Below are positions 10,170 to 52,492 of a stretch of 64,000 nucleotides of DNA, piece after piece. Both the position numbers and the translations under genes were made by a program. The stretch covers positions 328-64,327 of the forward strand of contig DATFHD010000100.1 of NCBI GenBank assembly GCA_035248785.1. The letters run 5' to 3'. The notes beneath the pieces are model-generated. The model was not told the origin of the DNA, ran no database searches, and was given only the letters and a program-made list of their open reading frames with translations. Position 1 is the first letter of the stretch. Every line of letters begins with the position of its first letter. Source of the stretch: Pyrinomonadaceae bacterium (GTDB taxonomy: Bacteria > Acidobacteriota > Blastocatellia > Pyrinomonadales > Pyrinomonadaceae).

Positions 10170-10568
10170 TCAGTTTAAGAAGGTCGGCGACTCGGTCTCG
10201 TCTTCATCTGACGAGCGAACCGTGGCGGATGTGACGTCGGAAGGGACGCTCTCTCTGCCGAAGGCGTTCACCGAGGTGGCGTAGTAGTAATAAGTCATCC
10301 CCGGCTCCAAATGGCTTTGGGTGAATTTAGTGCCGGGGACGGGCTTGTCGTTCACCTTCTCCCACTGGTCTTTGGGTAGAGTAGGGTCTAGGCTCTGGTA
10401 GACGTTATAGCCGACCACGAACTGCGCCGGGTCTTCCCCCACACTCCGGAGAAACGGTATCAGACAGTCTTGACAGAGTAACTGCTTCTTACCCGTCCGC
10501 TTATGGCCTAAAGTGATGACCCATTCAGCCCGGCCGCTGGCCGCGTGCTTACACCTCTTCGCGCCCAT
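10170..10568 (-). CDS. Small hypothetical protein with a fibronectin type III-like C-terminal half; possibly a gene remnant
   Basis: VVGYNVYQSLDP...GTKFTQSHLEPGMTYYYYATSVNAFGRESVPS resembles an FN3 strand pattern. The DNA looks less GC-rich than its neighbours. Confidence 0.5.
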   Translation of the reverse strand: MGAKRCKHAASGRAEWVITLGHKRTGKKQLLCQDCLIPFLRSVGEDPAQFVVGYNVYQSLDPTLPKDQWEKVNDKPVPGTKFTQSHLEPGMTYYYYATSVNAFGRESVPSDVTSATVRSSDEDETESPTFLN

Positions 10569-11056: not shown

Positions 11057-11635
11057 TCAGCCGAGGACTTTCGAGACCGACACGCGCAGCGACGCGAGCG
11101 TGTGCGACTGCAACCTGCGGCCGCGTGCGTAAGACCGGGCGCTCCGGTACTCGCCGCCCGCGGGGTCGCCGTAAACCTCGATGCGCTCTTCGGGGAGGTT
11201 TACGAGCCACGCCTCTGGAATCCCCGCGGCCGCGTAGAGCGGCAGCTTGACCTTCCGGTCGTAGTCGAGCGTCGTGTCCGACACCTCGATGACGACCAGC
11301 ATGTCTTCCGGGTGGGGATGCGTGTGCCTGTAAAAGTCGGCGCGGGGCTTGAGGACGGTGATGTCCGGCTGCGGCTCAGAGTAGTCGTCGAGCTGGACGG
11401 GGTTTTGGACGCGGACGATGGCGCTGTGCCGAAGCCGCAATGTGATGAACTGCGTCAGAAAGTCAACGCAGGCCGCGTGTCGTTCTCCGATGGGTGACAT
11501 TAGGATTACCTCCCCGCAGACAAGCTCCACGCGTTTGTCTTCCGAGAAGATTCCGAACTGACCCATCCGCTCGTACTCGGCGACGGTGAAACGATGTCTG
11601 GTTACTTCAACTGATCTGGCTTCTTGAACAGACAT
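11057..11635 (-). CDS. Uma2-family (DUF820) putative endonuclease
   Basis: FTVAEYERMGQFGIF...VELVCGEVILMSPIGERHA...PDITVLKP...MLVVIEVSDTTLDYDRKVKLPLYAAAGIPEAWLVNL is the Uma2 PD-(D/E)XK-like layout. Confidence 0.8.
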   Translation of the reverse strand: MSVQEARSVEVTRHRFTVAEYERMGQFGIFSEDKRVELVCGEVILMSPIGERHAACVDFLTQFITLRLRHSAIVRVQNPVQLDDYSEPQPDITVLKPRADFYRHTHPHPEDMLVVIEVSDTTLDYDRKVKLPLYAAAGIPEAWLVNLPEERIEVYGDPAGGEYRSARSYARGRRLQSHTLASLRVSVSKVLG

Positions 11636-11752
11636 GGCTTTTCTCCCGTGCGTGAGTTGGCGGACTCCGCTGGCGTTAGCGGAATGATAGCACGGGCGGG
11701 CGCGCGAGACGATTTACGCGCCCCGCGCGCGCGTGCTATAAGCCGAAGGGTC

Positions 11753-13879
11753 ATGAAGCGCTACGTCATCAAGCGGCCCGCGGGCTCTCAACTCCCCGAC
11801 AGGCTGGCGCGCTACCGCGAGGAGTTGAACGAGGAGCAGTTCGCCGTGGCGACGGCGCCCGCGGGTGCCGCGCTCGTCATCGCGGGCGCGGGCAGCGGGA
11901 AGACGCGTGCCATCACGTACCGCGTCGCGTACCTCGTCGAGCACGGCGTCGCGCCCGCGCGCATCATGTTGGCGACGTTCACGAACCGCGCGGCGCGCGA
12001 GATGCTGCGCCGCGTCGAGCAGTTGACGGGCGGAGGCTCGGACGTGGCGCGGCGCGTCTGGGGCGGCACCTTCCACCGCATCGCGAACCTCGTCCTGCGG
12101 CGCCACGCCGAAAGTATCGGTTACACCTCGAACTTCTCCATCCTCGACTCTGAAGACGCCAAAGACTTCATCTCCACCTGCGTTGACGAGGCCGGCGTGG
12201 ACACCAAGGCGCGTCGCTTCCCGAAGGCGGAAGTCCTGCAAGACCTCATCAGCTTCGCCACCAACACCGACACGCCCATCTCGGACGTGGTGCCGCGCCG
12301 CTACCCTTACTTCGAGCCGCTGGCGCAGCAGATCACGCGCGTTGACCGCCTCTACATGGAGCGCAAGCGCGAGCGCAACGTGATGGACTACGACGACCTG
12401 CTTCTGAACTGGAAGCGACTGCTGGAAGAGCGCGAGGAGGTGGCGCGCATCTACCGCGAGCAGTTCGAGCACGTACTCGTTGACGAGTATCAGGACACGA
12501 ACAAGCTTCAGGCGGAGATCGTTGACCTGCTCGCGTTCAAGCACCGCAACGTGATGGTCGTCGGCGACGACGCGCAGAGCATCTTCGCCTTCCGCGGCGC
12601 ATCGGTCGAAGGCATATACGAGTTCCCGAAGCGCTACCCGGAGGCGCGCGTCTTCCGGCTCGAAACCAACTACCGCTCGACGCCCGAAATCCTCGCCGTC
12701 GCCAACGTCTCCATCGCCTCGAACCGTCGGCAGTTCGCCAAGACCCTGCGCGCAGCGCGGCCGTCGCAGGGGTTACAGCCCGCGCTCGTCCCCTGCCGCG
12801 ACGCAGACCAGCAGGCGGCCTTCGTCGCGTCGCGCCTGCTCGAACTGCGCGACGAAGGCGTGGCCCTGAGCGAGGCGGCCGTGCTCTACCGTTCGCACTA
12901 CCACTCGCTCGAACTACAGCTTGAGCTGACGCGGCGCGGCATCCCTTACCGCGTGCGCTCGGGCGTGCGCTTCTTCGAGCAGGCGCACATCAAGGACGTG
13001 GTTTCGTACCTGCGCTTGGTCGCCAACCCGCGCGACGAGTTGGCGTGGAAGCGTGTCTTGCGCCTCATCCCGAACGTCGGCGCCGCGACGACCAACCGCA
13101 TCTGGGAGCGCATCGGCGTGGCCGCAGACCCTCTGGCTCTGGTCTTAAGAGGCGAGGCCGACGCCGTCGCGACGAAGCGCGGCTCGGGCTGGGCCGACTT
13201 CCGCGCGCTTCTGGAAGAACTCGTGCGCGACGAGGTGCGCACGAGCCCCGCGAGGCAGATCGAGACGGTGCTCACGCGCGGCTACGAGGACTACCTCGAA
13301 AACTCCTACGAGAACGCCGACGCGCGCCTCGAAGACCTGCGACAGCTCGCGCACTACGCCACGCGCTACACTTCGGCCGAAGAGTTTCTGGCCGAACTCT
13401 CCCTGCTCTCGACCGAGCGCTACGGAGCCCCGCAGGGCCTCACCGCCGAGGACGTAATCGAAGGCGGCGACGAAGACGAACTCATCACGCTCACCTCCGT
13501 CCACCAAGCCAAAGGTCTCGAATGGCGCGCCGTCTTCATCCTCTGGGCGGCCGACGGCAAGTTCCCCTCGCCCCGCAGCCTCCGCGACGCCGAAGGCGAA
13601 GAGGAAGAACGCCGCCTCTGGTACGTCGCCCTCACACGCGCCCAAGACCAGCTCTACATCACCTACCCCCTCATGGTCACCGACTACTCCTCCCGCCAGA
13701 CCCTCCTCCAACGCCCCTCCCGCTTCGTCACCGAAGTCCCCCCAGATTTGTATGAGATTTGGAGCCTCGAAGAAGAGACCACCACGACGCCCGCGCTCGC
13801 CGCACCCACGGCGGACGAAGAAGATGAAGGCAGCGAACCCGAACGCGGAGGCGGCGAACCGGGCGGCTATGTCAATTAA
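11753..13879 (+). CDS. UvrD/Rep/PcrA-family helicase (second paralogue in the window) with an acidic C-terminal tail
   Basis: LNEEQFAVATAPAGAALVIAGAGSGKTRAITYRVAYLV, ATFTNRAAREM, VLVDEYQDTNKLQ, TNYRSTPEIL, LTSVHQAKGLEW, YVALTRAQDQLYI. The ATG at 11753 (MKRYVIK) is preferred over the track start at 11624, which would overlap the Uma2 gene. Confidence 0.9.
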   Translation: MKRYVIKRPAGSQLPDRLARYREELNEEQFAVATAPAGAALVIAGAGSGKTRAITYRVAYLVEHGVAPARIMLATFTNRAAREMLRRVEQLTGGGSDVARRVWGGTFHRIANLVLRRHAESIGYTSNFSILDSEDAKDFISTCVDEAGVDTKARRFPKAEVLQDLISFATNTDTPISDVVPRRYPYFEPLAQQITRVDRLYMERKRERNVMDYDDLLLNWKRLLEEREEVARIYREQFEHVLVDEYQDTNKLQAEIVDLLAFKHRNVMVVGDDAQSIFAFRGASVEGIYEFPKRYPEARVFRLETNYRSTPEILAVANVSIASNRRQFAKTLRAARPSQGLQPALVPCRDADQQAAFVASRLLELRDEGVALSEAAVLYRSHYHSLELQLELTRRGIPYRVRSGVRFFEQAHIKDVVSYLRLVANPRDELAWKRVLRLIPNVGAATTNRIWERIGVAADPLALVLRGEADAVATKRGSGWADFRALLEELVRDEVRTSPARQIETVLTRGYEDYLENSYENADARLEDLRQLAHYATRYTSAEEFLAELSLLSTERYGAPQGLTAEDVIEGGDEDELITLTSVHQAKGLEWRAVFILWAADGKFPSPRSLRDAEGEEEERRLWYVALTRAQDQLYITYPLMVTDYSSRQTLLQRPSRFVTEVPPDLYEIWSLEEETTTTPALAAPTADEEDEGSEPERGGGEPGGYVN

Positions 13880-13899
13880 GACTTTCGGAGCTAACCGCG

Positions 13900-14976
13900 A
13901 TGGCTAATCCCGAACATCTTGAGATTCTGAGCCAAGGGGTAGAGGCGTGGAACAAGTGGAGAGATGAGCACCAAGACGTTCGTCCAGACCTCAGCGGTGC
14001 AGACCTCGGCGACGCAGACCTAACATTCGCCAACCTCAGCCGCTCAAACCTGAGCGGCGCAGACCTCAGCGATGCAGACTTCAGCTACGCAAATCTCAAC
14101 TTCTCAAACCTAAGCGGTGCAAATCTTAGAGATGCAGACCTCAGCGACGCAGACCTCAGCGGCGCAGACCTCAGCGGCGCAGAGCTAGGTAATGCAAACC
14201 TCAGGGACGCAAACCTCGGCGACGCAAACCTTAGTGATGCGAATCTCTTCAACGTAAATCTCACTAGTGTAGAACTCGACGGCGCAGACTTCACGAATGT
14301 TAGGTTGAGTTGGAGTACGTTCGCAGACAACGACCTCAGTGAAGTTAAAGGACTAGAGACGGTACAACATAGTGGCCCGTCAAGCATCGGCGTTGACACG
14401 CTCTATATATCAGGCGGGAAGATACCCGAAGCGTTCCTGCGCGGGTGCGGCCTACCCGACGATTTCATAGCCTTTATCCCTTCGCACTTCGGCGTACAGC
14501 AGGCAATACAGTTTTATTCCTGCTTCATCAGCTACAGCACGCGGGACGAGGAGTTCGCGCGGCGTCTTTACTCGCGGATGAGGGACGAGAAACTGCGCGT
14601 GTGGTTCGCGCCCGAAGACGCGCAGGGCGGAAAGAAGCTTTACGAGCAGATAGAGCGCGCGATTCAGGTTCACGACAGGCTTTTGATCGTCCTCTCCGAG
14701 CGGAGCCTGCAAAGCAAGTGGGTCATGACAGAGATTCGCAGGGCGCGCAAAGTCGAGTTGAAGGAGAACCGCCGCAAGCTCTTTCCCATTCGCCTCGTTG
14801 ACTACGAAACGCTGCAAGCGTGGGAATGCTTCGACGCGGATACGGGCGAGGATTTGGCGTCTGAGGTGCGTCAGTATTTCATCCCCGACTTCTCCAACTG
14901 GAAAGACCACGACGCTTTCGAGAAGGCGTTCGAGAGATTGCTACGCGATTTGAGGGCGGAAGAGGCCAGAGCCTGA
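13900..14976 (+). CDS. Pentapeptide-repeat protein fused to a C-terminal TIR domain
   Basis: About 23 A(D/N)LXX repeats (ADLGDADLTFANLSRSNLSGADLSDADFSYANLNF...), then FISYSTRDEEFARRLYSRMRDEKLRVWFAPEDAQGGKKLYEQIERAIQVHDRLLIVLSERSLQSKWVMTEIRRA (TIR-type motifs including S..W...E). Starts 20 nt after the helicase stop. Confidence 0.85.
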   Translation: MANPEHLEILSQGVEAWNKWRDEHQDVRPDLSGADLGDADLTFANLSRSNLSGADLSDADFSYANLNFSNLSGANLRDADLSDADLSGADLSGAELGNANLRDANLGDANLSDANLFNVNLTSVELDGADFTNVRLSWSTFADNDLSEVKGLETVQHSGPSSIGVDTLYISGGKIPEAFLRGCGLPDDFIAFIPSHFGVQQAIQFYSCFISYSTRDEEFARRLYSRMRDEKLRVWFAPEDAQGGKKLYEQIERAIQVHDRLLIVLSERSLQSKWVMTEIRRARKVELKENRRKLFPIRLVDYETLQAWECFDADTGEDLASEVRQYFIPDFSNWKDHDAFEKAFERLLRDLRAEEARA

Positions 14977-15150
14977 CGCGCGCGTCCGCCGCCCCTAATC
15001 CGAAGGCGTTGACACGCGTTTTCGTTCGTGTTTCAATGCGCGCCGTCCCTGCCAGAATCCCGACGCATCGCCCGAAGACTGCAAGCCTCGCCCGTAGCAA
15101 ACCTTCGCCCGCGGCCGCACGCCGCGCGGCGCAGACGCCGGAGGTGAAAG

Positions 15151-15714
15151 TTGAAGAGGCGTCAAGCACTCCTGCCCCTCGCGCTCGTCGTCTGCGCGCT
15201 GGCTGCTGTTCCTGCGCGCGGGCAGGACGAGGGGCCGGCGAACGGCCCGTTCTGGGTCTACGCGCGCATCGAGGTCAACACCACGCGGAAGACGCCGGAC
15301 GGCGAGAAGCACGAGTCCCGCGTCTACGTCTCGAACCTCGTCTCGGTGTCGGCCGACGTGTGGGACAACCTGCTCAGGTACAAGGCGAAGGAGAACGTCT
15401 CGGCCTACTTCGACGCGACCGTGGGCAAGGCCGCCGAGGCGCGCGGCGAAGAACTCTCCTACTACGATCAGGACGTTGAATGGGACTGCACCTGCGTCGG
15501 CACTTCGAACGAGGTGCGCCCGAAGTCCGACGTTGAAGAGAAGCGAAACGAGGTGATCCAGACGGCGAAGGAGAACGAACACCCGGTCGTCTTCTTCAAC
15601 TGGGATCCCACGGGGAAGAACAAAGAGCGCGACGCGCAGGGCGAGCTGAAGAAGAACACGACGCCGCCCGCCAAGGCACCCACTTCGGGGAAGAAGCCGA
15701 GCGGCTCGAACTGA
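15151..15714 (+). CDS. Secreted hypothetical protein
   Basis: Signal peptide MKRRQALLPLALVVCALAAVPARGQ. No family recognised. Confidence 0.6.
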   Translation: MKRRQALLPLALVVCALAAVPARGQDEGPANGPFWVYARIEVNTTRKTPDGEKHESRVYVSNLVSVSADVWDNLLRYKAKENVSAYFDATVGKAAEARGEELSYYDQDVEWDCTCVGTSNEVRPKSDVEEKRNEVIQTAKENEHPVVFFNWDPTGKNKERDAQGELKKNTTPPAKAPTSGKKPSGSN

Positions 15715-15781
15715 AAGCGGCCCGAGTTCTGAAAGCGCCACGCGTCCTGAAAGAGCCCCTAGTTCTGAAAGCGCCGACGCG
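15711..15781. repeat. Four tandem ~18-nt repeats, each starting with CTGAAAG
   Basis: CTGAAAG occurs at 15711, 15729, 15746 and 15764 (CTGAAAGCGCCACGCGTC-type units) in the intergenic gap. Confidence 0.7.
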
Positions 15782-15811
15782 TCCCCCTTAAACCTTCCGA
15801 GGAGCGAAGCC

Positions 15812-16438
15812 GTGAACAACCTTGCCTACACGTCGCAGGACGCCGAGTACGTCGGGCCGAAGGTCGAGGAGAAGGTGCGCGAGGAGGTCGGCGCCGATGC
15901 GCCGATGCCCTACCGCGTCGAGACGGGCGAGGCGGCGACCGTCTCGGTCGGCTCGTTCGTCGGCGACGTGGCGCGCGGGCTCGTCGGCGGCAAGGACGAG
16001 ACTCTGTTCCGCCTACGCTTCGGACTGCCGCGCCTGCTCCCGGCCGAACTGTGGGTCTCGGTCAACCGGCAGGGCGTCGGCTCGCACGTCGGGCTGCTGC
16101 ACTACTCGGCGAAGCTTTCGACGCTTTGCGGCGGCGAGGTCGCGCTCGAAGACCCGAAGTTCTTCGGCAAGTCGAAGTTCGTCGGGATGGAGCCGACGGC
16201 CTCACGGCTTAACGCCAACGGCGAACTGATAAAGCGCGCCAACGGCCTCGCGCGCGTCGAGTCACAGTCGGGCGGCCTCACGCTCAAGATCAAACGCTGC
16301 TGCAAGGTCTTCCCGTTCGCGGGCGGCTCGATGCTCGTCGTCGCGACGCTGCCGCGCCCCGTCAAGATGGGCTTCGGCGCCGCCATAGACGCCAGAGACT
16401 TCTTCGACCTCGCCGACATGCTAGAGGCGGCGCTCTGA
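15812..16438 (+). CDS. Hypothetical protein
   Basis: GTG-start ORF of 208 aa with non-shadow composition. No family recognised. Confidence 0.5.
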   Translation: MNNLAYTSQDAEYVGPKVEEKVREEVGADAPMPYRVETGEAATVSVGSFVGDVARGLVGGKDETLFRLRFGLPRLLPAELWVSVNRQGVGSHVGLLHYSAKLSTLCGGEVALEDPKFFGKSKFVGMEPTASRLNANGELIKRANGLARVESQSGGLTLKIKRCCKVFPFAGGSMLVVATLPRPVKMGFGAAIDARDFFDLADMLEAAL

Positions 16439-16472
16439 GCCTGCGGTCTGTGCTACACTTCACCTTAAACCG

Positions 16473-18023
16473 GTGGCGGAGCACACATACAAGCGGGCCG
16501 AGCGTATCGGGCGGAGCGTGCGTTACGGGCAGAAGCGCCTGAAGCGTCTGTCACGCGGCGCGACCCTCGGGGGCATCTTCCTCTCCTTCCTCCAAATCGG
16601 GACGACGGGCTTCGGCGGCGGTCTGGCCGTCATCGCGCAACTGCGCGTGCTCGTCCTACAGAAGCGTCGCTGGTTCACAGACCACGAGTTCGCAGAAGGC
16701 CTTGCGCTCGCGCAGAGCCTCCCGGGCTCGATGGCGGGGAACGTCGCGGCCTACGTCGGGCTGCGCCTGCGCGGTTGGCGCGGGGCGGCCGTCGCGGTGG
16801 CCGGACTCGTCCTGCCTTCGACGGTGATGATGATCGTCCTCGCAATCCTCTACAGGCACCTGCGCAACCTGCCCGACACAGAAAAGCTCTTCCACGGGCT
16901 GAACGCGGCCGTCGTCGCGCTCATCGCGGTGACGGCGTGGCGCATCGGGCGCAGTACACTCTCGAAGTCTTGGCAGTGGTACATCGCAGTCTTCTCCGGC
17001 CTCGCCGTCATCCTCTTCAGCGCGACCGTCATCGAGGTCATACTCGTCGCGGGCCTCGCAGGCATCTACATAGACTCGTTCGCCGAGCGGCGCTGGCAGC
17101 GGTGGCGGCGCATACGCCGGCTGGCAGCGCTACGCCGCGCCGAACTCGACGAGGCAGAGTCGCGCGCCTTCGTCGGCGGCTACCTGACGCGCGCCGTCGC
17201 CGACGAGCAAGTGCGGCAGGCCGGCGGCTTTGTTGAGGTGGAAAAGGAAGTCGAGCGCAGGCCCGAGCGTCGCGTGAGGCGCGCCGAGAAGATACGCGAG
17301 CGCGTGCGCGTGTGGAGGAAGAAGGCCGGCGCGCAGAGAAATGAACAGGGCGCGCAGAGGAGTGAAGAGAAGGACGCGGCGGACGCGGACGCCGCGGCGA
17401 CGGACGCGCAGGCGGAAGGACGTGAGAAGGGCGCGGGAACAGTCCTGCGCTCGTTGGCGGCGTTGGGTGCGGCGATGCCGATTATGGCGAAGCTGGCGCT
17501 GCTGCTGACCATCGCGTCCATCTTCCTGCGCATCGGAGCCGTCACCTTCGGCGGCGGCTTCGTGATGGTGCCGCTCATCGAGGCCGAGGTCGTCAACGGT
17601 CACGGCTGGGTCTCACACCGCGAGTTCGTCGAGGCGTTCGCGCTCGGGCAGATTACGCCCGGCCCCGTCCTCGTCACCGCGACCTTCATCGGCTACCGCG
17701 TCGCGGGCACGCTCGGCGCGCTCGTCGCCACCGTCAGCATCTTCCTGCCGTCTCTGGTGCTGACCATCGTCGCGGGCTCTTCGCTCAGGCGCTTCCGCTC
17801 CAACCGGCAGGTGCAGGCGTTCCTGCGCGGCGTGACGCCCGCGGTCGTCGGCCTGCTCGTCGCCGCCGCCTATAGCACGGGGCGCGCAGGGATACACACT
17901 TGGGTCGGACTCGCCATCGCGCTCGCCGCGGCGGCCGTGCTCGTGCGCTTCCGCGCCAACGCGTTCCTCGTCATGCTCGGCGCGGCGGCGCTGCGCTTCG
18001 CCTTCAGCTTCTTCTGGTTCTGA
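16473..18023 (+). CDS. chrA: Chromate transporter (CHR family, two fused halves with a charged linker)
   Basis: FLQIGTTGFGGGLAVIAQL...DHEFAEGLALAQSLPGSMAGNVAAYVG, and a second half FLRIGAVTFGGGFVMVPLIEAEVV...HREFVEAFALGQITPGPVLVTATFIG. Confidence 0.85.
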   Translation: MAEHTYKRAERIGRSVRYGQKRLKRLSRGATLGGIFLSFLQIGTTGFGGGLAVIAQLRVLVLQKRRWFTDHEFAEGLALAQSLPGSMAGNVAAYVGLRLRGWRGAAVAVAGLVLPSTVMMIVLAILYRHLRNLPDTEKLFHGLNAAVVALIAVTAWRIGRSTLSKSWQWYIAVFSGLAVILFSATVIEVILVAGLAGIYIDSFAERRWQRWRRIRRLAALRRAELDEAESRAFVGGYLTRAVADEQVRQAGGFVEVEKEVERRPERRVRRAEKIRERVRVWRKKAGAQRNEQGAQRSEEKDAADADAAATDAQAEGREKGAGTVLRSLAALGAAMPIMAKLALLLTIASIFLRIGAVTFGGGFVMVPLIEAEVVNGHGWVSHREFVEAFALGQITPGPVLVTATFIGYRVAGTLGALVATVSIFLPSLVLTIVAGSSLRRFRSNRQVQAFLRGVTPAVVGLLVAAAYSTGRAGIHTWVGLAIALAAAAVLVRFRANAFLVMLGAAALRFAFSFFWF

Positions 18024-18051
18024 GCGCGAGAGCCCGAAGCTTTTTCTGGTT

Positions 18052-18681
18052 TTGAGAATGAGAGCCGGACGTGTCTTAGTTCTGCTTCTTCTGCTTGCGC
18101 AGCTCGCGGGCTGCGGGCGCGCGGGGCGCCGCACTATCTTGAGCGTGCCGCCCGCGGCCGCGTCCGACAACGACGTGTATCTGGCGGAAGAGGGCGGGCG
18201 CGTACGCGCGCTCAGGCCCGACGGCACGGAGCAGTGGTCTTACTCGCTGGCCGAAGACCTCGAACGCCTGACGCATGAGCCCTCGCACGACATACGCATC
18301 GAGTACCTCGCGCCGCGCTCGGGCGGCCGCCTCTTCGGGCTGGCGACGCGGCTCGCGGGGCGGCAGGCCGGGGCGTCCATCCTCTTCGCACTCGAAAGGG
18401 GGCGGCTGCTCTGGCAGAGGGAGGTGCCGTTCCCTGCGCAGGGCGTCGCGCCCGTCGCCGTCGGGCAGGAGGCCGTCTACGAGTCGGGCGAAGACGGCGT
18501 GCTCTACGCATACGCGCGCGACGACGGGCGCGAGCTCTGGCGCTACCGCGTGGGCGACGGCGCCATCGGCTCGCCCGCGGTCGGCGCCGACGGCACCATC
18601 TACGTCACCGGCCCGCGCCAGAACCTACACGCCGTCGGCACGGACGGCCGACAGCGCTGGGTCGCCGGCACGCAGAAGTGA
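18052..18681 (+). CDS. PQQ-like beta-propeller repeat lipoprotein (BamB-like fold)
   Basis: Lipobox LAQLAGC. Repeats of type GVLYAYARDDGRELWRY...GSPAVGADGTIYVTG. Confidence 0.65.
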   Translation: MRMRAGRVLVLLLLLAQLAGCGRAGRRTILSVPPAAASDNDVYLAEEGGRVRALRPDGTEQWSYSLAEDLERLTHEPSHDIRIEYLAPRSGGRLFGLATRLAGRQAGASILFALERGRLLWQREVPFPAQGVAPVAVGQEAVYESGEDGVLYAYARDDGRELWRYRVGDGAIGSPAVGADGTIYVTGPRQNLHAVGTDGRQRWVAGTQK

Positions 18682-18696
18682 GCGGCCGAAGAGCTT

Positions 18697-28739: not shown

Positions 28740-28830
28740 TGGCGGAGATGGCAGGATTCGAACCTGCGATAGGCTTTTGACCTATAACGGTTTAGCAAAC
28801 CGCCGCCTTCAGCCACTCGGCCACATCTCC
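28740..28830 (-). tRNA. tRNA-Ser (anticodon GCU)
   Basis: Hand-folded: GGAGATG TG GCC GAGTGGCTGAA GGC G GCGGT TTGCTAA ACCGT, a long variable arm TATAGGTCAAAAGCCTATC, GCAGG TTCGAAT CCTGC CATCTCC G CCA. The CCA is encoded. Confidence 0.9.
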
Positions 28831-47207: not shown

Positions 47208-47293
47208 TGGCGGAGGGGACAGGACTCGAACCTGCAAGCGCGTTAGCGCGGTAGTTTTCAAGACTACTGCCTTACCAATTAGGCTACCCCTCC
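47208..47293 (-). tRNA. tRNA-Ser (anticodon UGA)
   Basis: Hand-folded: GGAGGGG TA GCC TAATTGGTAA GGC A GTAGT CTTGAAA ACTAC, a long variable arm CGCGCTAACGCGCTT, GCAGG TTCGAGT CCTGT CCCCTCC G CCA. Confidence 0.9.
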
Positions 47294-50810: not shown

Positions 50811-51335
50811 ATGAAAGCACCTATCGGAAAGGTTTATTACATCGCCGGCCTCTGTCTTATTACGCTGCTGATTATCGGCGGAGTCGTGGCCGTCGCGAGA
50901 CGCCAGCGAAGGCCGTTGCCGCCGGTCATCTCCAAGGTTAAGCAGCTCGAAGTGGCTAGCGTTATAGTCGAGGGGGCGGACGAAGAGACGGCGGTGGCCG
51001 TGATTGAAATAAGGAACACTTCCGATAAGGCTGTCATCGCCGTCGCGGTAGAGGTCGGCGATGGTAAAGACGCTTCGGGCACCAACCTTAACGGCATACG
51101 TGAAGGTGATTTGCCCCCTCTGGTCGTCATCGAACCCTACGGTTCGACAAAAGTCAGGTTCTCGCTCAGCAACCTGAAATTTTACAAGCCCGGTACGCCG
51201 ATTAAAATCGGCGGAGCTATGTTCGCCGACGGCGACGAGGAGGGCGATGAGGACACGCTGGGGACGATGCGCCGGCAGAAGGAGCATCAAAAAGCCAAGA
51301 AGCAAAAAAAGGAAGGAGCGACCTCACAGCAATGA
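50811..51335 (+). CDS. Membrane-anchored hypothetical protein
   Basis: N-terminal transmembrane segment [20 protein letters not shown] and a Lys-rich tail. Lower-GC DNA. The stop overlaps the next start (ATGA). Confidence 0.55.
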
Positions 51336-52492
51336 AACGGAGTCTAGTCATCGTAGCCTTGAGTGCGGCGTTACTGAGCGCGGTAGGCGGTATATACGTG
51401 TGGGCTCAGTGCGGCGACAGAGAGCAAGTGTACTCGGATGACACTAATGACATGAACTGTGATTATCATGTGCATACAACCTTTACAGTAACCAAACATT
51501 GGAGAATTTTCTGGACCGACGGCTATGAACGTGTCGACGCACATGCTACCGGTGTGGGAGGATGCTACGGGGGATTAATTACTAGCACAGTCTGCGACCC
51601 GATATTTGAACGGCCATACTGGAGTGTAAATACCAGCGGCTGGGGAGAGTGGAATCAAGTATCTAGAACAAGGGCCGTAGACAGCGATGGTACGAGTTGT
51701 ACGGAAAATACGTTTGCTAATAACTACCATCGCCATGCGTGCCCGACTCCGACACCTCCCCCCCCGGACTGCCTCAAGGGCAACTGTTCCTCTTCAGCCA
51801 AGGCGGAGTATCAATTCAGCGAGTCTCAACCAATCTGCAACGGCAGCGTAGACTATTGCACGTACCCCTACACGGGGGGCTGCCCCTCCGGCACCTACGC
51901 GTACAACTGGGAGGACACCTGCTGCTGCAACCACGCCCAGACCCCCGTCTTCATAGACGTGGCCGGCGATGGCATCGAGTTGACGAGCAGCGCCGACGGC
52001 GTCAACTTCAACCTCAACCGGGTCGGCATCAAGGAGCGGCTGGCGTGGACGGCGGCCGGGTCGGACGACGCACTATTGGTGCTCGACCGCGACGGCAACG
52101 GCACGATTGACGACGGCGGCGAGGTGTTCGGGAACTTCACCGAGCAGCCGGTGTCCGAGGAGCCGAACGGCTTCCTCGCGCTCGCCGAGTTCGACAAGCC
52201 GCAGAAGGGCGGAAACTCCGACGGCGTGATTGATTTCCGCGACCCGGTCTTCTTCTCCCTGCGCCTCTGGCAGGACACTAATCACAACGGCGTCTCCGAG
52301 CCGGGCGAGTTGCACCCGCTCGCGGAATTAGGGGTGGCGACGCTTGAGCTGGATTACAAGCTGTCGAAGCGGACTGACCGGTACGGCAACCAGTTCCGCT
52401 ACCGCGCGAAGTTGAAGGACGCGCACGGCGCGCAGGTCGGGCGGTGGGCGTGGGACGTGCTCCTCATGTCCGGCGGCGGCGGCGGGGGATAA
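51332..52492 (+). CDS. Secreted Cys-rich protein with C-terminal EF-hand-like Asp/Gly calcium-binding motifs
   Basis: Signal [20 protein letters not shown], about 18 Cys in the N-terminal half, [17 protein letters not shown] and [12 protein letters not shown] motifs, and [15 protein letters not shown]. Confidence 0.6.

What the first reader, a model, noticed from the sequence alone, without database searches (positions are those of the whole stretch)
13900..14976. Pentapeptide-repeat (DNA-mimic fold) fused to a TIR domain: candidate single-protein immune sensor-effector
Seen in the sequence:
- Residues ~30-150 are about 23 consecutive A(D/N)LXX pentapeptides.
- Residues ~205-330 read FYSCFISYSTRDEEFARRLYSRMRDEKLRVWFAPEDAQGGKKLYEQIERAIQVHDRLLIVLSERSLQSKWVMTEIRRA. 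This gives the (F/I)SYS start, the VW..D strand and the S..W...E helix of bacterial TIR domains, with a Glu where the catalytic NADase glutamate normally sits.
- By eye the DNA is less GC-rich and uses different codons (GCA GAC CTC AGC reiterations) than both neighbours.
- The ATG lies 20 nt after the stop of a UvrD-family helicase.

Established knowledge: TIR domains act as NAD+-degrading or signal-generating effectors in Thoeris, CBASS, SPARTA and TIR-type Avs systems. Pentapeptide-repeat proteins (Qnr, MfpA) form a quadrilateral beta-helix that mimics B-DNA and binds DNA-binding enzymes.

Inference: the repeat arm could bait a phage DNA-binding protein, or guard a host one, and switch on the TIR domain. 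I know of no characterised defence system with this architecture.
Basis: partly seen in the sequence, partly recalled or inferred. Interest (0 to 1): 0.78.

Follow-up and report, generated by a model that had tools for sequence, protein, structure and literature searches.

The report
Pentapeptide-repeat–TIR protein, candidate immune sensor
This gene really does fuse a pentapeptide-repeat beta-helix to a TIR domain with its catalytic glutamate intact, but it belongs to a large, uncharacterised family in soil bacteria that looks like a self-contained immune sensor-effector and has no proven role in defence.

Summary
ORF 13900..14976 (+, 358 aa) has an N-terminal cap, 24 in-register pentapeptide repeats (residues 30-149), a conserved linker (150-204) and a TIR domain (205-358). 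Its W274/E278 align on the WxxxE motif of the NADase AbTIR and are invariant in 60 homologues.

It is not a unique architecture. There are at least 8,000 protein clusters in one clade and 2,597 in a second, and more than 500 species genomes carry it, across Acidobacteriota, Verrucomicrobiota, Planctomycetota and Chloroflexota.

- **UvrD neighbour:** this is local synteny only (5-6 of 80 loci). No neighbour family recurs in more than 7 of 80 loci, so the gene acts alone.
- **For an immune-receptor reading:**
  - The TIR is constant (80-94% identity) while the repeat body is hypervariable (48-54%), with dN about 10-fold higher.
  - Tandem paralogues occur in about a fifth of loci.
  - Codon usage is persistently atypical.
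  - The gene sits in a variable cargo slot.
  - A few relatives carry the conflict-system adaptor EAD7 in place of the TIR.
- **Against:**
  - Neighbours show no enrichment of known defence genes.
  - No phage or intact plasmid copy was found.
  - dN/dS stays below 1.
  - The DNA-like acidic surface is not conserved (+0.27 to -0.96 charge per repeat).

I rate it a new variant of a known kind (TIR plus repeat sensor), with function untested.

The parts
13887..13890 (+). Shine-Dalgarno-like GGAG, 9 nt before the ATG. The gene starts 20 nt after the uvrD-family stop codon (13877-13879), and no promoter-like site was found in 11400-15300, so co-transcription with the helicase is likely.
13900..14976 (+). 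Complete CDS of the PPR-TIR protein (358 aa plus TGA stop).
13900..13986 (+). N-terminal helical cap (residues 1-29, MANPEHLEIL..GVEAWNKWR). Conserved across the family and modelled as two helices at pLDDT >95.
13987..14346 (+). 24 pentapeptide repeats (residues 30-149), about 6 coils of a right-handed quadrilateral beta-helix. Net charge is -18. This is the hypervariable part of the family. At DNA level it has a 15-nt period (16.3 copies, 70% match) and a 60-nt period (76% match).
14347..14511 (+). Conserved linker / C-terminal cap (residues 150-204; ..GPSSIGVDTLY.S.GKIPE.FLRGCG.PD.FI..). It is 80-91% identical among orthologues and is found in 2,544 clusters at 50% identity. It forms the junction at which TIR is occasionally replaced by EAD7.
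14512..14973 (+). TIR domain (residues 205-358). The beta-A strand is FYSCFISYS, beta-B is RVWF, beta-C is LLIVLS, and alpha-C carries W274 and E278.
14719..14733 (+). W274-V-M-T-E278 (TGG..GAG), the WxxxE motif. E278 is at the position of the catalytic glutamate of NADase TIRs and is invariant in alignments of 47 and 60 sequences.
15001..15024 (+). Terminator-like hairpin followed by a T-rich tail, 25 nt after the stop codon. It may end the uvrD/PPR-TIR transcript. The evidence is weak because such sites are no more frequent here than in shuffled sequence.

Best explanation
The gene encodes a cytoplasmic, self-contained sensor-effector of the bacterial conflict/immunity type. The capped pentapeptide-repeat beta-helix is a fast-evolving binding surface. 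The C-terminal TIR domain is an NAD+-cleaving effector that is inactive as a monomer.

Proposed mechanism (inferred, not shown): a foreign, probably multivalent, ligand from a phage or other mobile element binds the beta-helix. This brings two or more TIR domains together and completes the composite TIR active site around E278. NAD+ is then depleted, with or without production of ADPR-type products, and growth of the infected cell stops (abortive infection).

Shown here:
- the fold and domain order;
- the invariant WxxxE motif;
- the absence of any conserved partner gene;
- the constant-TIR, variable-repeat pattern;
- paralogue arrays;
- the patchy, cross-phylum distribution.

Inferred: the enzymatic activity, the trigger and the phenotype.

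The UvrD helicase immediately upstream is a housekeeping neighbour and not part of the system.
For: **Architecture**
- Pentapeptide E=4e-29 and TIR_2 E=1.6e-22.
- The beta-helix is modelled at pLDDT 95-99 and matches Np275/276, Qnr and MfpA.
- The TIR-only model (pTM 0.70) matches the SPARTA TIR-APAZ TIR (TMq 0.65), AbTir (TMt 0.69), BtpA and SARM1.

**Catalytic motif**
- W274/E278 align on the AbTIR W..E.
- Both are invariant across two clades down to 35% identity.

**Single-gene unit**
- In 80 species-level loci no neighbour family occurs in more than 7 loci.
- UvrD is upstream in only 5-6 of them.

**Constant effector, variable repeats**
- In orthologues the TIR is 80-94% identical, the linker 80-91% and the PPR 48-54%.
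- In 7 of 9 tandem paralogue pairs the TIR is 83-90% identical; across the 9 pairs the PPR is 34-55%.
- dN is 0.32-0.39 in the PPR against 0.035-0.047 in the TIR.

**Copy number and repeat number**
- 15 of 80 loci hold 2-3 copies, and some MAGs have several dispersed copies.
- Protein lengths step by 5 aa, from 298 to 484.

**Accessory behaviour**
- The family spans several phyla, with 55-59% identity between Acidobacteriota and Verrucomicrobiota copies.
- GC3 is below that of neighbours in 46 of 70 loci.
- The gene sits in a slot between uvrD and the Abhydrolase_2 gene that is empty in L092 and holds other cargo in L093.
- A plasmid copy is split by IS256.

**Link to conflict systems**
- The same cap-PPR-linker cassette is joined to EAD7 in P0280, P0358 and P0368.
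- EAD7 is described as an effector-recruiting adaptor of conflict systems (PMC7159879).

**Precedent**
- Single-protein TIR systems, including TIR+TPR, defend E. coli (PMC11350192).
- Pentapeptide repeats are listed among the predicted sensor repeats of bacterial NACHT proteins (bioRxiv 10.1101/2022.07.19.500537).
Against: - Flanking genes show no enrichment of known defence or mobile-element genes. Among about 300 neighbours at positions ±1 to ±3, the commonest families are HTH_3, DUF4142, amidohydrolases and TPR. Only isolated PrrC/type I S, PDC and PIN hits appear.
- No copy was found in 50,697 phage records, and no intact copy on 72,556 plasmids.
- PADLOC matches are at TIR-domain level only.
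- dN/dS in the repeats is 0.45-0.49, not above 1. Outward-facing positions are saturated at synonymous sites too. Relaxed constraint or repeat turnover could therefore explain the variability without positive selection.
- A conserved Glu is necessary but not sufficient for NADase activity. The family profile's best PDB match is a Toll-like receptor TIR (TLR15/TLR2) whose aligned sequence also shows WxxxE. That animal TLR TIRs act as scaffolds and not as NADases is from my own knowledge.
- The TIR model is only of moderate confidence (pLDDT 70.5).
- No oligomer model, activity or phenotype could be obtained here.
Confidence: 0.5

Rival explanations
1. The protein has a non-immune physiological role. 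It could be a regulated NAD+ hydrolase or a signalling/scaffold protein, for example in stress, dormancy or developmental control in large-genome soil bacteria. In that case the repeat body is a loosely constrained spacer or assembly scaffold and not a receptor.
For: - Neighbourhoods are overwhelmingly metabolic or housekeeping.
- Synteny is retained within a Pyrinomonadaceae clade.
- dN/dS is below 1 in the repeats.
- The family is absent from phages and intact plasmids.
Against: - Presence and absence vary at a shared locus.
- The distribution across phyla is patchy, with high identity between phyla.
- Tandem paralogue arrays have divergent repeats.
- Codon usage is atypical.
- The TIR is swapped for the conflict-system adaptor EAD7 in some relatives.

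All of these are unusual for a housekeeping regulator.
Confidence: 0.2
2. The roles are reversed. The pentapeptide beta-helix is the effector, an inhibitor or decoy for nucleic-acid enzymes as in Qnr/MfpA. The TIR, like EAD7, is an assembly or adaptor module that docks it to an unlinked core system.
For: - EAD7, a non-enzymatic adaptor, occupies exactly the TIR position after the same junction.
- Kaur et al. place pentapeptide repeats in the 'effector position' of vWA-MoxR systems and note that they may inhibit DNA-binding proteins.
- This copy is strongly acidic, at -18.
Against: - W274 and E278 are invariant across two deep clades, which argues for catalysis.
- Repeat charge and surface are not conserved, even among orthologues. 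That is hard to reconcile with a fixed enzymatic target.
- No core-system genes are linked.
Confidence: 0.1
3. Guard model. The beta-helix mimics DNA and sits on a host DNA-binding enzyme. A phage factor that displaces or modifies that enzyme releases the TIR.
For: - The fold is the same as the gyrase-binding DNA mimics MfpA, Qnr and AlbG.
- The repeat body of this copy has 22 acidic and 4 basic residues.
- In this clade the gene lies next to a DNA helicase.
Against: - A conserved host target predicts a conserved binding surface. Instead, repeat identity among orthologues is 48-54%, near the floor set by the inward-facing L/A positions.
- Charge per repeat ranges from -0.09 to -0.75 within the UvrD-linked clade.
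- Repeat number varies from about 12 to about 49.
- The helicase linkage is absent from 74-75 of 80 loci.
Confidence: 0.08
4. Thoeris-like signalling. The TIR makes a cyclic-ADPR-type messenger that activates an effector encoded elsewhere in the genome.
For: - There are weak matches to ThsB-type TIR models: PF08937 at 1.2e-5, PADLOC ThsB at 2e-4, and NCBIfam ThcB4 at 9e-5.
- AbTIR, a close structural match, is known to make cADPR isomers (my own knowledge; the match is).
Against: - No ThsA-like or other recurrent partner lies within ±8 kb in 80 loci.
- Known signalling TIR systems keep sensor and effector in one operon (established knowledge).
- The strongest model matches are to assembly-activated NADase TIRs: SAVED-TIR, Aga/SPARTA TIR, and TIR-STING.
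Confidence: 0.07

Closest known systems
Single-protein TIR defence systems with a repeat sensor, e.g. E. coli TIR-II (TIR + TPR) (PMC11350192)
   Same: One polypeptide combines a TIR domain that has the NADase active-site residues with a solenoid-type repeat domain. No obligatory partner gene is needed. The TIR active site is required for defence in the tested systems.
   Different: - The repeat is a pentapeptide beta-helix and not alpha-helical TPR.
- The domain order is repeat first, then TIR.
- There is no ATPase variant.
- The hosts are Acidobacteriota, Verrucomicrobiota and similar phyla.
- There are no experimental data.
AbTIR / BtpA-type bacterial TIR NADases and the SPARTA TIR-APAZ TIR
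   Same: These are the best sequence-profile and structural matches for the C-terminal domain. The WxxxE motif is shared. In those proteins activity depends on TIR-TIR assembly (established knowledge).
   Different: - Those TIRs are attached to coiled-coil or APAZ/Argonaute modules.
- They are triggered by other means, such as guide-directed nucleic-acid binding in SPARTA.
- Sequence identity is only 15-20%.
DNA-mimic pentapeptide-repeat proteins (MfpA, Qnr, AlbG, McbG)
   Same: They share the right-handed quadrilateral beta-helix fold. This particular copy also has an acidic surface.
   Different: - All Qnr/MfpA NCBIfam models score far below their cut-offs, e.g. Qnr at 37.8 bits against a cut-off of 240.
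- The surface charge is not conserved in the family.
- The Qnr loops were not identified here.
- The protein is fused to an effector domain.
- No link to a gyrase context was seen.
Bacterial NACHT/STAND and vWA-MoxR/EAD conflict systems that carry pentapeptide repeats (Kaur et al. 2020; Kibby et al. preprint)
   Same: - Pentapeptide repeats serve as the variable 'superstructure-forming' module next to a constant module.
- The cap-PPR-linker cassette found here also occurs fused to EAD7.
   Different: There is no NTPase, vWA or MoxR component in the protein or its neighbourhood. TIR is fused directly to the repeats.
DSR2 (SIR2 NADase + alpha-solenoid sensor that binds phage tail tube)
   Same: The logic is the same: a single-chain NAD+-depleting effector fused to a repeat sensor that binds a phage structural protein directly (PMC11850899, abstract).
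   Different: The effector is SIR2 and not TIR. The sensor is alpha-solenoid and not a beta-helix. DSR2 is a much larger tetramer. There is no homology.

Membership tests
TIR domain superfamily (Pfam TIR_2, PF13676) | Significant match to the family HMM above its gathering score | tested here: met
   80.7 bits against a cut-off of 28, E=1.6e-22, residues 209-316
TIR domain superfamily (Pfam TIR_2, PF13676) | Flavodoxin-like alpha/beta fold matching solved TIR structures | tested here: met
   The TIR-only AF2 model (pTM 0.70) has TIR domains as its top 30 Foldseek hits: SPARTA TMq 0.65, AbTir TMt 0.69. Model confidence is only moderate.
NADase-competent TIR domains | Glutamate at the catalytic position on helix alpha-C (WxxxE) | tested here: met
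   E278 aligns with the Glu of AbTIR's W..E and is invariant in alignments of 47 and 60 sequences.
NADase-competent TIR domains | NAD+ cleavage on self-association | not testable with these tools
   This needs an enzyme assay. No multimer prediction was available.
Pentapeptide-repeat proteins (Pfam PF00805) | Tandem A(D/N)LXX repeats forming a right-handed quadrilateral beta-helix | tested here: met
   24 in-register repeats; PF00805 E=4e-29; pLDDT 95-99; Foldseek hits to Np275/276, Qnr and MfpA
Qnr/MfpA-type DNA-mimic topoisomerase protectors | Match to the equivalog models | tested here: not met
   NCBIfam Qnr scores 37.8 bits against a cut-off of 240. MfpA scores 29.3 against 360.
Qnr/MfpA-type DNA-mimic topoisomerase protectors | Conserved DNA-like negative surface | tested here: not met
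   This copy is -0.75 per repeat. The family ranges from -0.96 to +0.27, and same-locus orthologues from -0.09 to -0.75.
Thoeris (ThsB sensor TIR + ThsA effector) | A ThsA-type effector gene (SIR2/SLOG, or Macro/TM) adjacent to the TIR gene | tested here: not met
   No recurrent partner in 80 loci. The window neighbours are UvrD, two hypotheticals and ChrA. ThsB models match only weakly.
Gabija (GajA + GajB) | A GajA OLD-family ATPase/nuclease next to the UvrD-like GajB | tested here: not met
   The upstream helicase matches GajB models, as any UvrD-family helicase does. It scores best to PcrA/UvrD and sits in a recR-ybaB-uvrD repair neighbourhood with no GajA.
Genes of defence islands (guilt by association) | Homologues enriched next to known defence genes | tested here: not met
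   Neighbours at ±1 and ±2/3 of 80 loci give mostly metabolic families and only singleton defence hits. No formal background rate was computed.
PADLOC/known single-gene TIR systems (PDC-S66, TIR-NLR, RT-TIR, SAVED-TIR) | Full-length match to a system model | tested here: not met
   All hits cover only the TIR part (residues ~200-305), at E between 2.8e-9 and 4e-3.

The most novel reading that the evidence does not exclude
The pentapeptide-repeat beta-helix is a previously unrecognised class of hypervariable intracellular pattern-recognition surface, a bacterial counterpart of LRR or TPR sensors. It binds phage or plasmid proteins directly and switches on a fused TIR NADase by induced assembly. 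This would define a very widespread single-gene immune family (thousands of members, tandem receptor arrays) in soil phyla whose defence repertoire is largely unknown. The repeat cassette would also be exchangeable between TIR and EAD7 outputs.
Probability: 0.35. Interest if true: 0.7.

Novelty: new variant of a known kind. Interest (0 to 1): 0.5.

Why it matters
If it is an immune protein, it adds a new sensor fold, a beta-helix whose outward-facing residues and repeat number vary freely, to the short list of solenoid sensors that drive TIR effectors. It would do so in Acidobacteriota, Verrucomicrobiota and Planctomycetota, abundant soil lineages with almost no experimentally validated defence systems.

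The family is compact (about 350 aa, one gene), has an obvious catalytic knock-out (E278A) and carries natural repeat-swap variants, so it is easy to test.

The negative results matter too. Defence-island association, the usual discovery heuristic, would have missed this family. The DNA-mimic idea that comes to mind on seeing pentapeptide repeats is not supported as a family trait.

Tried and rejected
1. **UvrD helicase as functional partner: rejected.** It is upstream in only 5-6 of 80 loci, all close relatives, and is more conserved there than the PPR-TIR. L092 and L093 keep recR-ybaB-uvrD without the TIR gene.
2. **Gabija-like reading of the helicase: rejected.** There is no GajA, and the best models are PcrA/UvrD.
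3. **Recent horizontal transfer as the cause of low GC: rejected in that form.** Syntenic orthologues show the same low GC3, and the offset is family-wide.
4. **Recent DNA-level repeat expansion: not supported.** The 15-nt and 60-nt periods match at only 70-76%.
5. **Positive selection on outward-facing repeat positions: could not be shown.** pS is saturated at 0.6-0.77 and dN/dS is not computable or below 1.
6. **Full-length AF2 model for the TIR part: unusable** (pLDDT 36-58). It was replaced by a TIR-only model built from two clades.
7. **Plasmid hits H1 and H2 as alternative effector fusions: led nowhere.** They are only longer pentapeptide proteins.
8. **Genomic context of the EAD7 variant: uninformative.** The contigs are about 4 kb.
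9. **Paralogues of the gene in the window: none**.
10. **Promoter scan around the gene: nothing found.** Terminator-like sites are at chance level.
11. **Rfam scan of the window:** only two tRNA genes.
Full report
**1. Observation**

The window contains an ORF at 13900..14976 on the + strand encoding 358 aa.

- Residues 30-149 are 24 pentapeptides in one register. D/N is at position 1 in 20 of 24, L at position 2 in 21 of 24, and A at position 5 in 16 of 24.
- Pfam assigns Pentapeptide (PF00805, E=4e-29) and TIR_2 (PF13676, E=1.6e-22, residues 209-316), both above their gathering scores.
- The ATG lies 20 nt after the TAA of a UvrD-family helicase gene, with a GGAG 9 nt upstream.
- GC is 0.556 against 0.62-0.72 for neighbouring genes.
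- The difference is a true codon-usage effect. GC3 is 0.67 (0.57 in the repeat part, 0.78 in the TIR part) against 0.79-0.92 in the neighbours.
- The exact protein is on record in soil-type metagenome contigs. The closest named relatives are Pyrinomonadaceae MAGs (Acidobacteriota).

**2. Anatomy**

An AlphaFold2 model gives a very confident structure for residues 1-160 (pLDDT 95-99). It consists of two N-terminal cap helices followed by a quadrilateral beta-helix of about six coils, then a helical linker (pLDDT about 87-91 to residue 190). Foldseek matches this part to Np275/276, designed beta-solenoids, HetL, Qnr, MfpA and AlbG.

The TIR part was poorly modelled in the full-length run. A TIR-only model built from two clades reached pTM 0.70, and its top PDB matches are all TIR domains: SPARTA TIR-APAZ (TMq 0.65), AbTir (TMt 0.69), MyD88, BtpA, L7 and SARM1.

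A profile of the C-terminal half aligns to the NAD+ hydrolase AbTIR at E=2.9e-10. This places W274 and E278 on AbTIR's W-x-x-x-E. That this Glu is the catalytic residue of NADase TIRs is established knowledge, not something tested here. W274 and E278 are invariant in alignments of 47 sequences and 60 sequences, the latter reaching 35% identity.

**3. How common is it?**

The architecture is far from unique.

- The first search returned 7,987 clusters at E<=1e-5, which is the candidate cap. The 120 best nearly all have the same Pfam set, and many are already named 'TIR domain/Pentapeptide repeats' or 'toll/interleukin-1 receptor domain-containing protein'.
- A second clade, about 36-40% identical in the TIR, has 2,597 hits with the same architecture.
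These lie in Acidobacteriota, Verrucomicrobiota, Planctomycetota, Chloroflexota, KSB1 and one Heliomicrobium MAG.
- Verrucomicrobial copies (55-59% identity) are closer to the query than many acidobacterial ones (48-55%). This indicates horizontal spread.
- No copy was found in 50,697 phage records, and none of 72,556 plasmids carries an intact one. One Skermanella plasmid carries a copy split by two IS256 elements.

**4. Genomic context**

In the window and its closest relatives the order is recR, ybaB, Uma2 (all on the - strand), then uvrD-family helicase (+), PPR-TIR (+), ChrA, and the Abhydrolase_2 gene.

The helicase is not a partner.
- It is upstream in only 5-6 of 80 species loci.
- In those loci it is 84-92% identical while the PPR-TIR is 65-74% identical.
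- It scores best to PcrA/UvrD models and sits among repair genes.

An all-against-all clustering of flanking ORFs found no family present in more than 7 of 80 loci, apart from out-of-frame shadows of the repeats. The gene is therefore a stand-alone unit.

Neighbours at ±1 and ±2/±3 (about 300 proteins) are mostly metabolic or housekeeping. The commonest Pfam families are HTH_3 (5), DUF4142 (5), amidohydrolases (5) and TPR (4). PADLOC found only singletons (one PrrC, one protein matching type I specificity-subunit models, three PDC candidates); Pfam found two PIN-domain proteins. I did not compute a formal background, and defence systems of these phyla are poorly represented in PADLOC.

The gene nevertheless behaves as accessory DNA. 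Relatives that keep recR-ybaB-uvrD (81-87% identity) have something else after uvrD. L092 has the Abhydrolase_2 gene directly after it, and L093 has a different 779-aa gene. The uvrD-to-abhydrolase gap is thus a variable cargo slot.

**5. Evolutionary pattern**

This is the most informative result.

- Among same-locus orthologues the TIR is 80-94% identical and the linker 80-91%. The repeat body is only 48-54% identical, close to the floor set by the inward-facing L and A.
- 15 of 80 loci carry two or three copies. In 7 of the 9 tandem pairs compared, the TIR is 83-90% identical; across all 9 pairs the repeats are 34-55% identical.
- dN is 0.32-0.39 in the repeats against 0.035-0.047 in the TIR. 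dN/dS is 0.45-0.49 against 0.06-0.09.
- Outward-facing repeat positions are saturated even at synonymous sites (pS 0.6-0.77). This points to repeat turnover or segment replacement. Positive selection is not demonstrated.
- Protein lengths vary in steps of five residues from 298 to 484 aa.
- At DNA level the array has only 70-76% periodic identity, so there is no recent slippage.
- Low GC3 persists in orthologues. Across 70 loci the gene's GC3 is lower than its neighbours' in 46 (median -0.06), and the gap is widest in the highest-GC hosts.

**6. The DNA-mimic idea**

This copy is strongly acidic, with 19 D, 3 E, 4 R and 0 K in 120 residues (net -18). That is not a family trait.
- Charge per pentapeptide has a median of about -0.25 and ranges from -0.96 to +0.27.
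- Even the UvrD-adjacent orthologues range from -0.09 to -0.75.
- Qnr and MfpA equivalog models score far below their cut-offs.

A conserved host target, whether through a guard model or gyrase protection, would predict a conserved surface. The opposite is seen.

**7. Modularity**

An exhaustive search with the 64-residue linker alone found it in 2,544 clusters at 50% identity, 748 of them at E<=1e-10. Of the best 149:
- 128 have pentapeptide repeats;
- 98 match a family TIR HMM, and most of the remainder are fragments or frameshifted TIRs;
- three (P0280, P0358, P0368) carry EAD7 directly after the same FLRGCGVPD junction;
- one (P0328) has a domain with a sub-threshold nucleoside 2-deoxyribosyltransferase match.

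EAD7 is described as a small non-enzymatic adaptor that recruits effectors by homotypic interaction in NTP-dependent conflict systems (PMC7159879). The same paper and the bacterial NACHT study list pentapeptide repeats among the variable 'superstructure-forming' modules of such systems. This ties the cassette to conflict systems independently of the TIR domain.

**8. Mechanism**

My best explanation, at confidence about 0.5, is a single-chain sensor-effector. The variable beta-helix binds a foreign ligand. This drives TIR-TIR assembly, the composite active site around E278 cleaves NAD+, and the infected cell arrests.

Shown:
- the folds;
- the catalytic motif;
- the single-gene organisation;
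- the constant-TIR, variable-repeat pattern;
- accessory behaviour;
- the EAD7 swap.

Inferred: the activity, the trigger and the phenotype.

The rivals, each detailed in its own section, are:
- a non-immune NAD+/scaffold role (0.2);
- reversed roles, with the beta-helix as effector and TIR as adaptor (0.1);
- a guard of a host DNA enzyme (0.08);
- a Thoeris-like messenger maker with an unlinked effector (0.07).

**9. Comparison and novelty**

The closest validated kind is the single-protein TIR system with a repeat domain, such as E. coli TIR-II (TIR+TPR). In that survey, 12 of 32 TIR candidates defended against phage, and the TIR active site was required (PMC11350192). In logic it resembles DSR2. 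In fold, the C-terminal domain is nearest to the AbTIR and SPARTA TIRs.

It is not a member of Thoeris, Gabija, Qnr/MfpA or any PADLOC system model. Defining features of each were tested and not met.

I found no paper that describes or tests a pentapeptide-TIR protein. The library does not cover subscription journals.

I rate it a new variant of a known kind, with interest 0.5. It is a large, tractable, uncharacterised family with a suggestive receptor-like evolutionary signature. However, the fusion of TIR to yet another repeat is not in itself surprising, and the standard genomic evidence for defence is lacking.

Noticed in passing
window 11057..11635 (-): The Uma2-family gene (192 aa) between ybaB and the helicase matches the PADLOC single-gene candidate PDC-S03 (E=1.3e-18). 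tblastn finds no homologue of it in relatives L091, L092 and L093, so it may be a second accessory insertion at this locus.
   Followed up: partly
window 13880..18696 compared with L092, L093, L003, L004: The gap between uvrD and the Abhydrolase_2 gene is a variable cargo slot. It is empty in L092. L093 has a 779-aa gene there with weak S1-P1 nuclease, Zn-PLC and Nal1_C hits. L003 and L004 have PPR-TIR plus ChrA. The window has PPR-TIR, two hypotheticals, ChrA and a PQQ-repeat gene.
   Followed up: partly
window 50811..51335 (+) and 51332..52492 (+): Two adjacent ORFs (174 and 386 aa) whose stop and start overlap lie in the lowest-GC kilobase of the window (0.547). Neither has a Pfam or PADLOC match. 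This is an unexplained low-GC two-gene islet.
   Followed up: partly
window 15151..15714 (+) and 15812..16438 (+): Two hypothetical genes sit directly downstream of the PPR-TIR gene. One is 187 aa with a signal-peptide-like N-terminus, the other 208 aa. They have host-like GC3 (0.88-0.91) and no Pfam or PADLOC hit. They are absent from L003 and L004, where ChrA follows the TIR gene.
   Followed up: partly
L088 823..4579 (Skermanella rosea plasmid pSR-5): A PPR-TIR gene of the second clade is split into a 144-aa pentapeptide ORF and a 216-aa TIR ORF by two IS256 transposase genes.
   Followed up: yes
P0280, P0358, P0368 (L089 2009..2842); P0328: The same cap-pentapeptide-linker cassette is fused to EAD7, a conflict-system adaptor, instead of TIR. 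In P0328 it is fused to a domain with a sub-threshold nucleoside 2-deoxyribosyltransferase match.
   Followed up: partly
L029 6691..10468; L046 791..2856; L031, L034, L078 and others: Tandem arrays of two or three PPR-TIR paralogues have near-identical TIR domains (83-90%) but divergent repeat bodies (34-46%) and different repeat numbers.
   Followed up: yes
several representatives (e.g. P0260, P0327, P0330, P0334, P0364): In these proteins the TIR reading frame breaks just after the FYSCFISYS strand. They are either frameshifted pseudogenes or assembly errors in long-read MAGs.
   Followed up: no
window 10170..10568 (-): A 132-aa ORF between recR and ybaB has only a weak, sub-threshold Ig-like hit (Ig_J_second, E=3.8e-4). 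It is called as a gene in the public contig.
   Followed up: no
window 28740..28830 (-) and 47208..47293 (-): Two tRNA-Ser genes (anticodons GCT and TGA) are the only RNA families detected in the window at gathering thresholds.
   Followed up: yes
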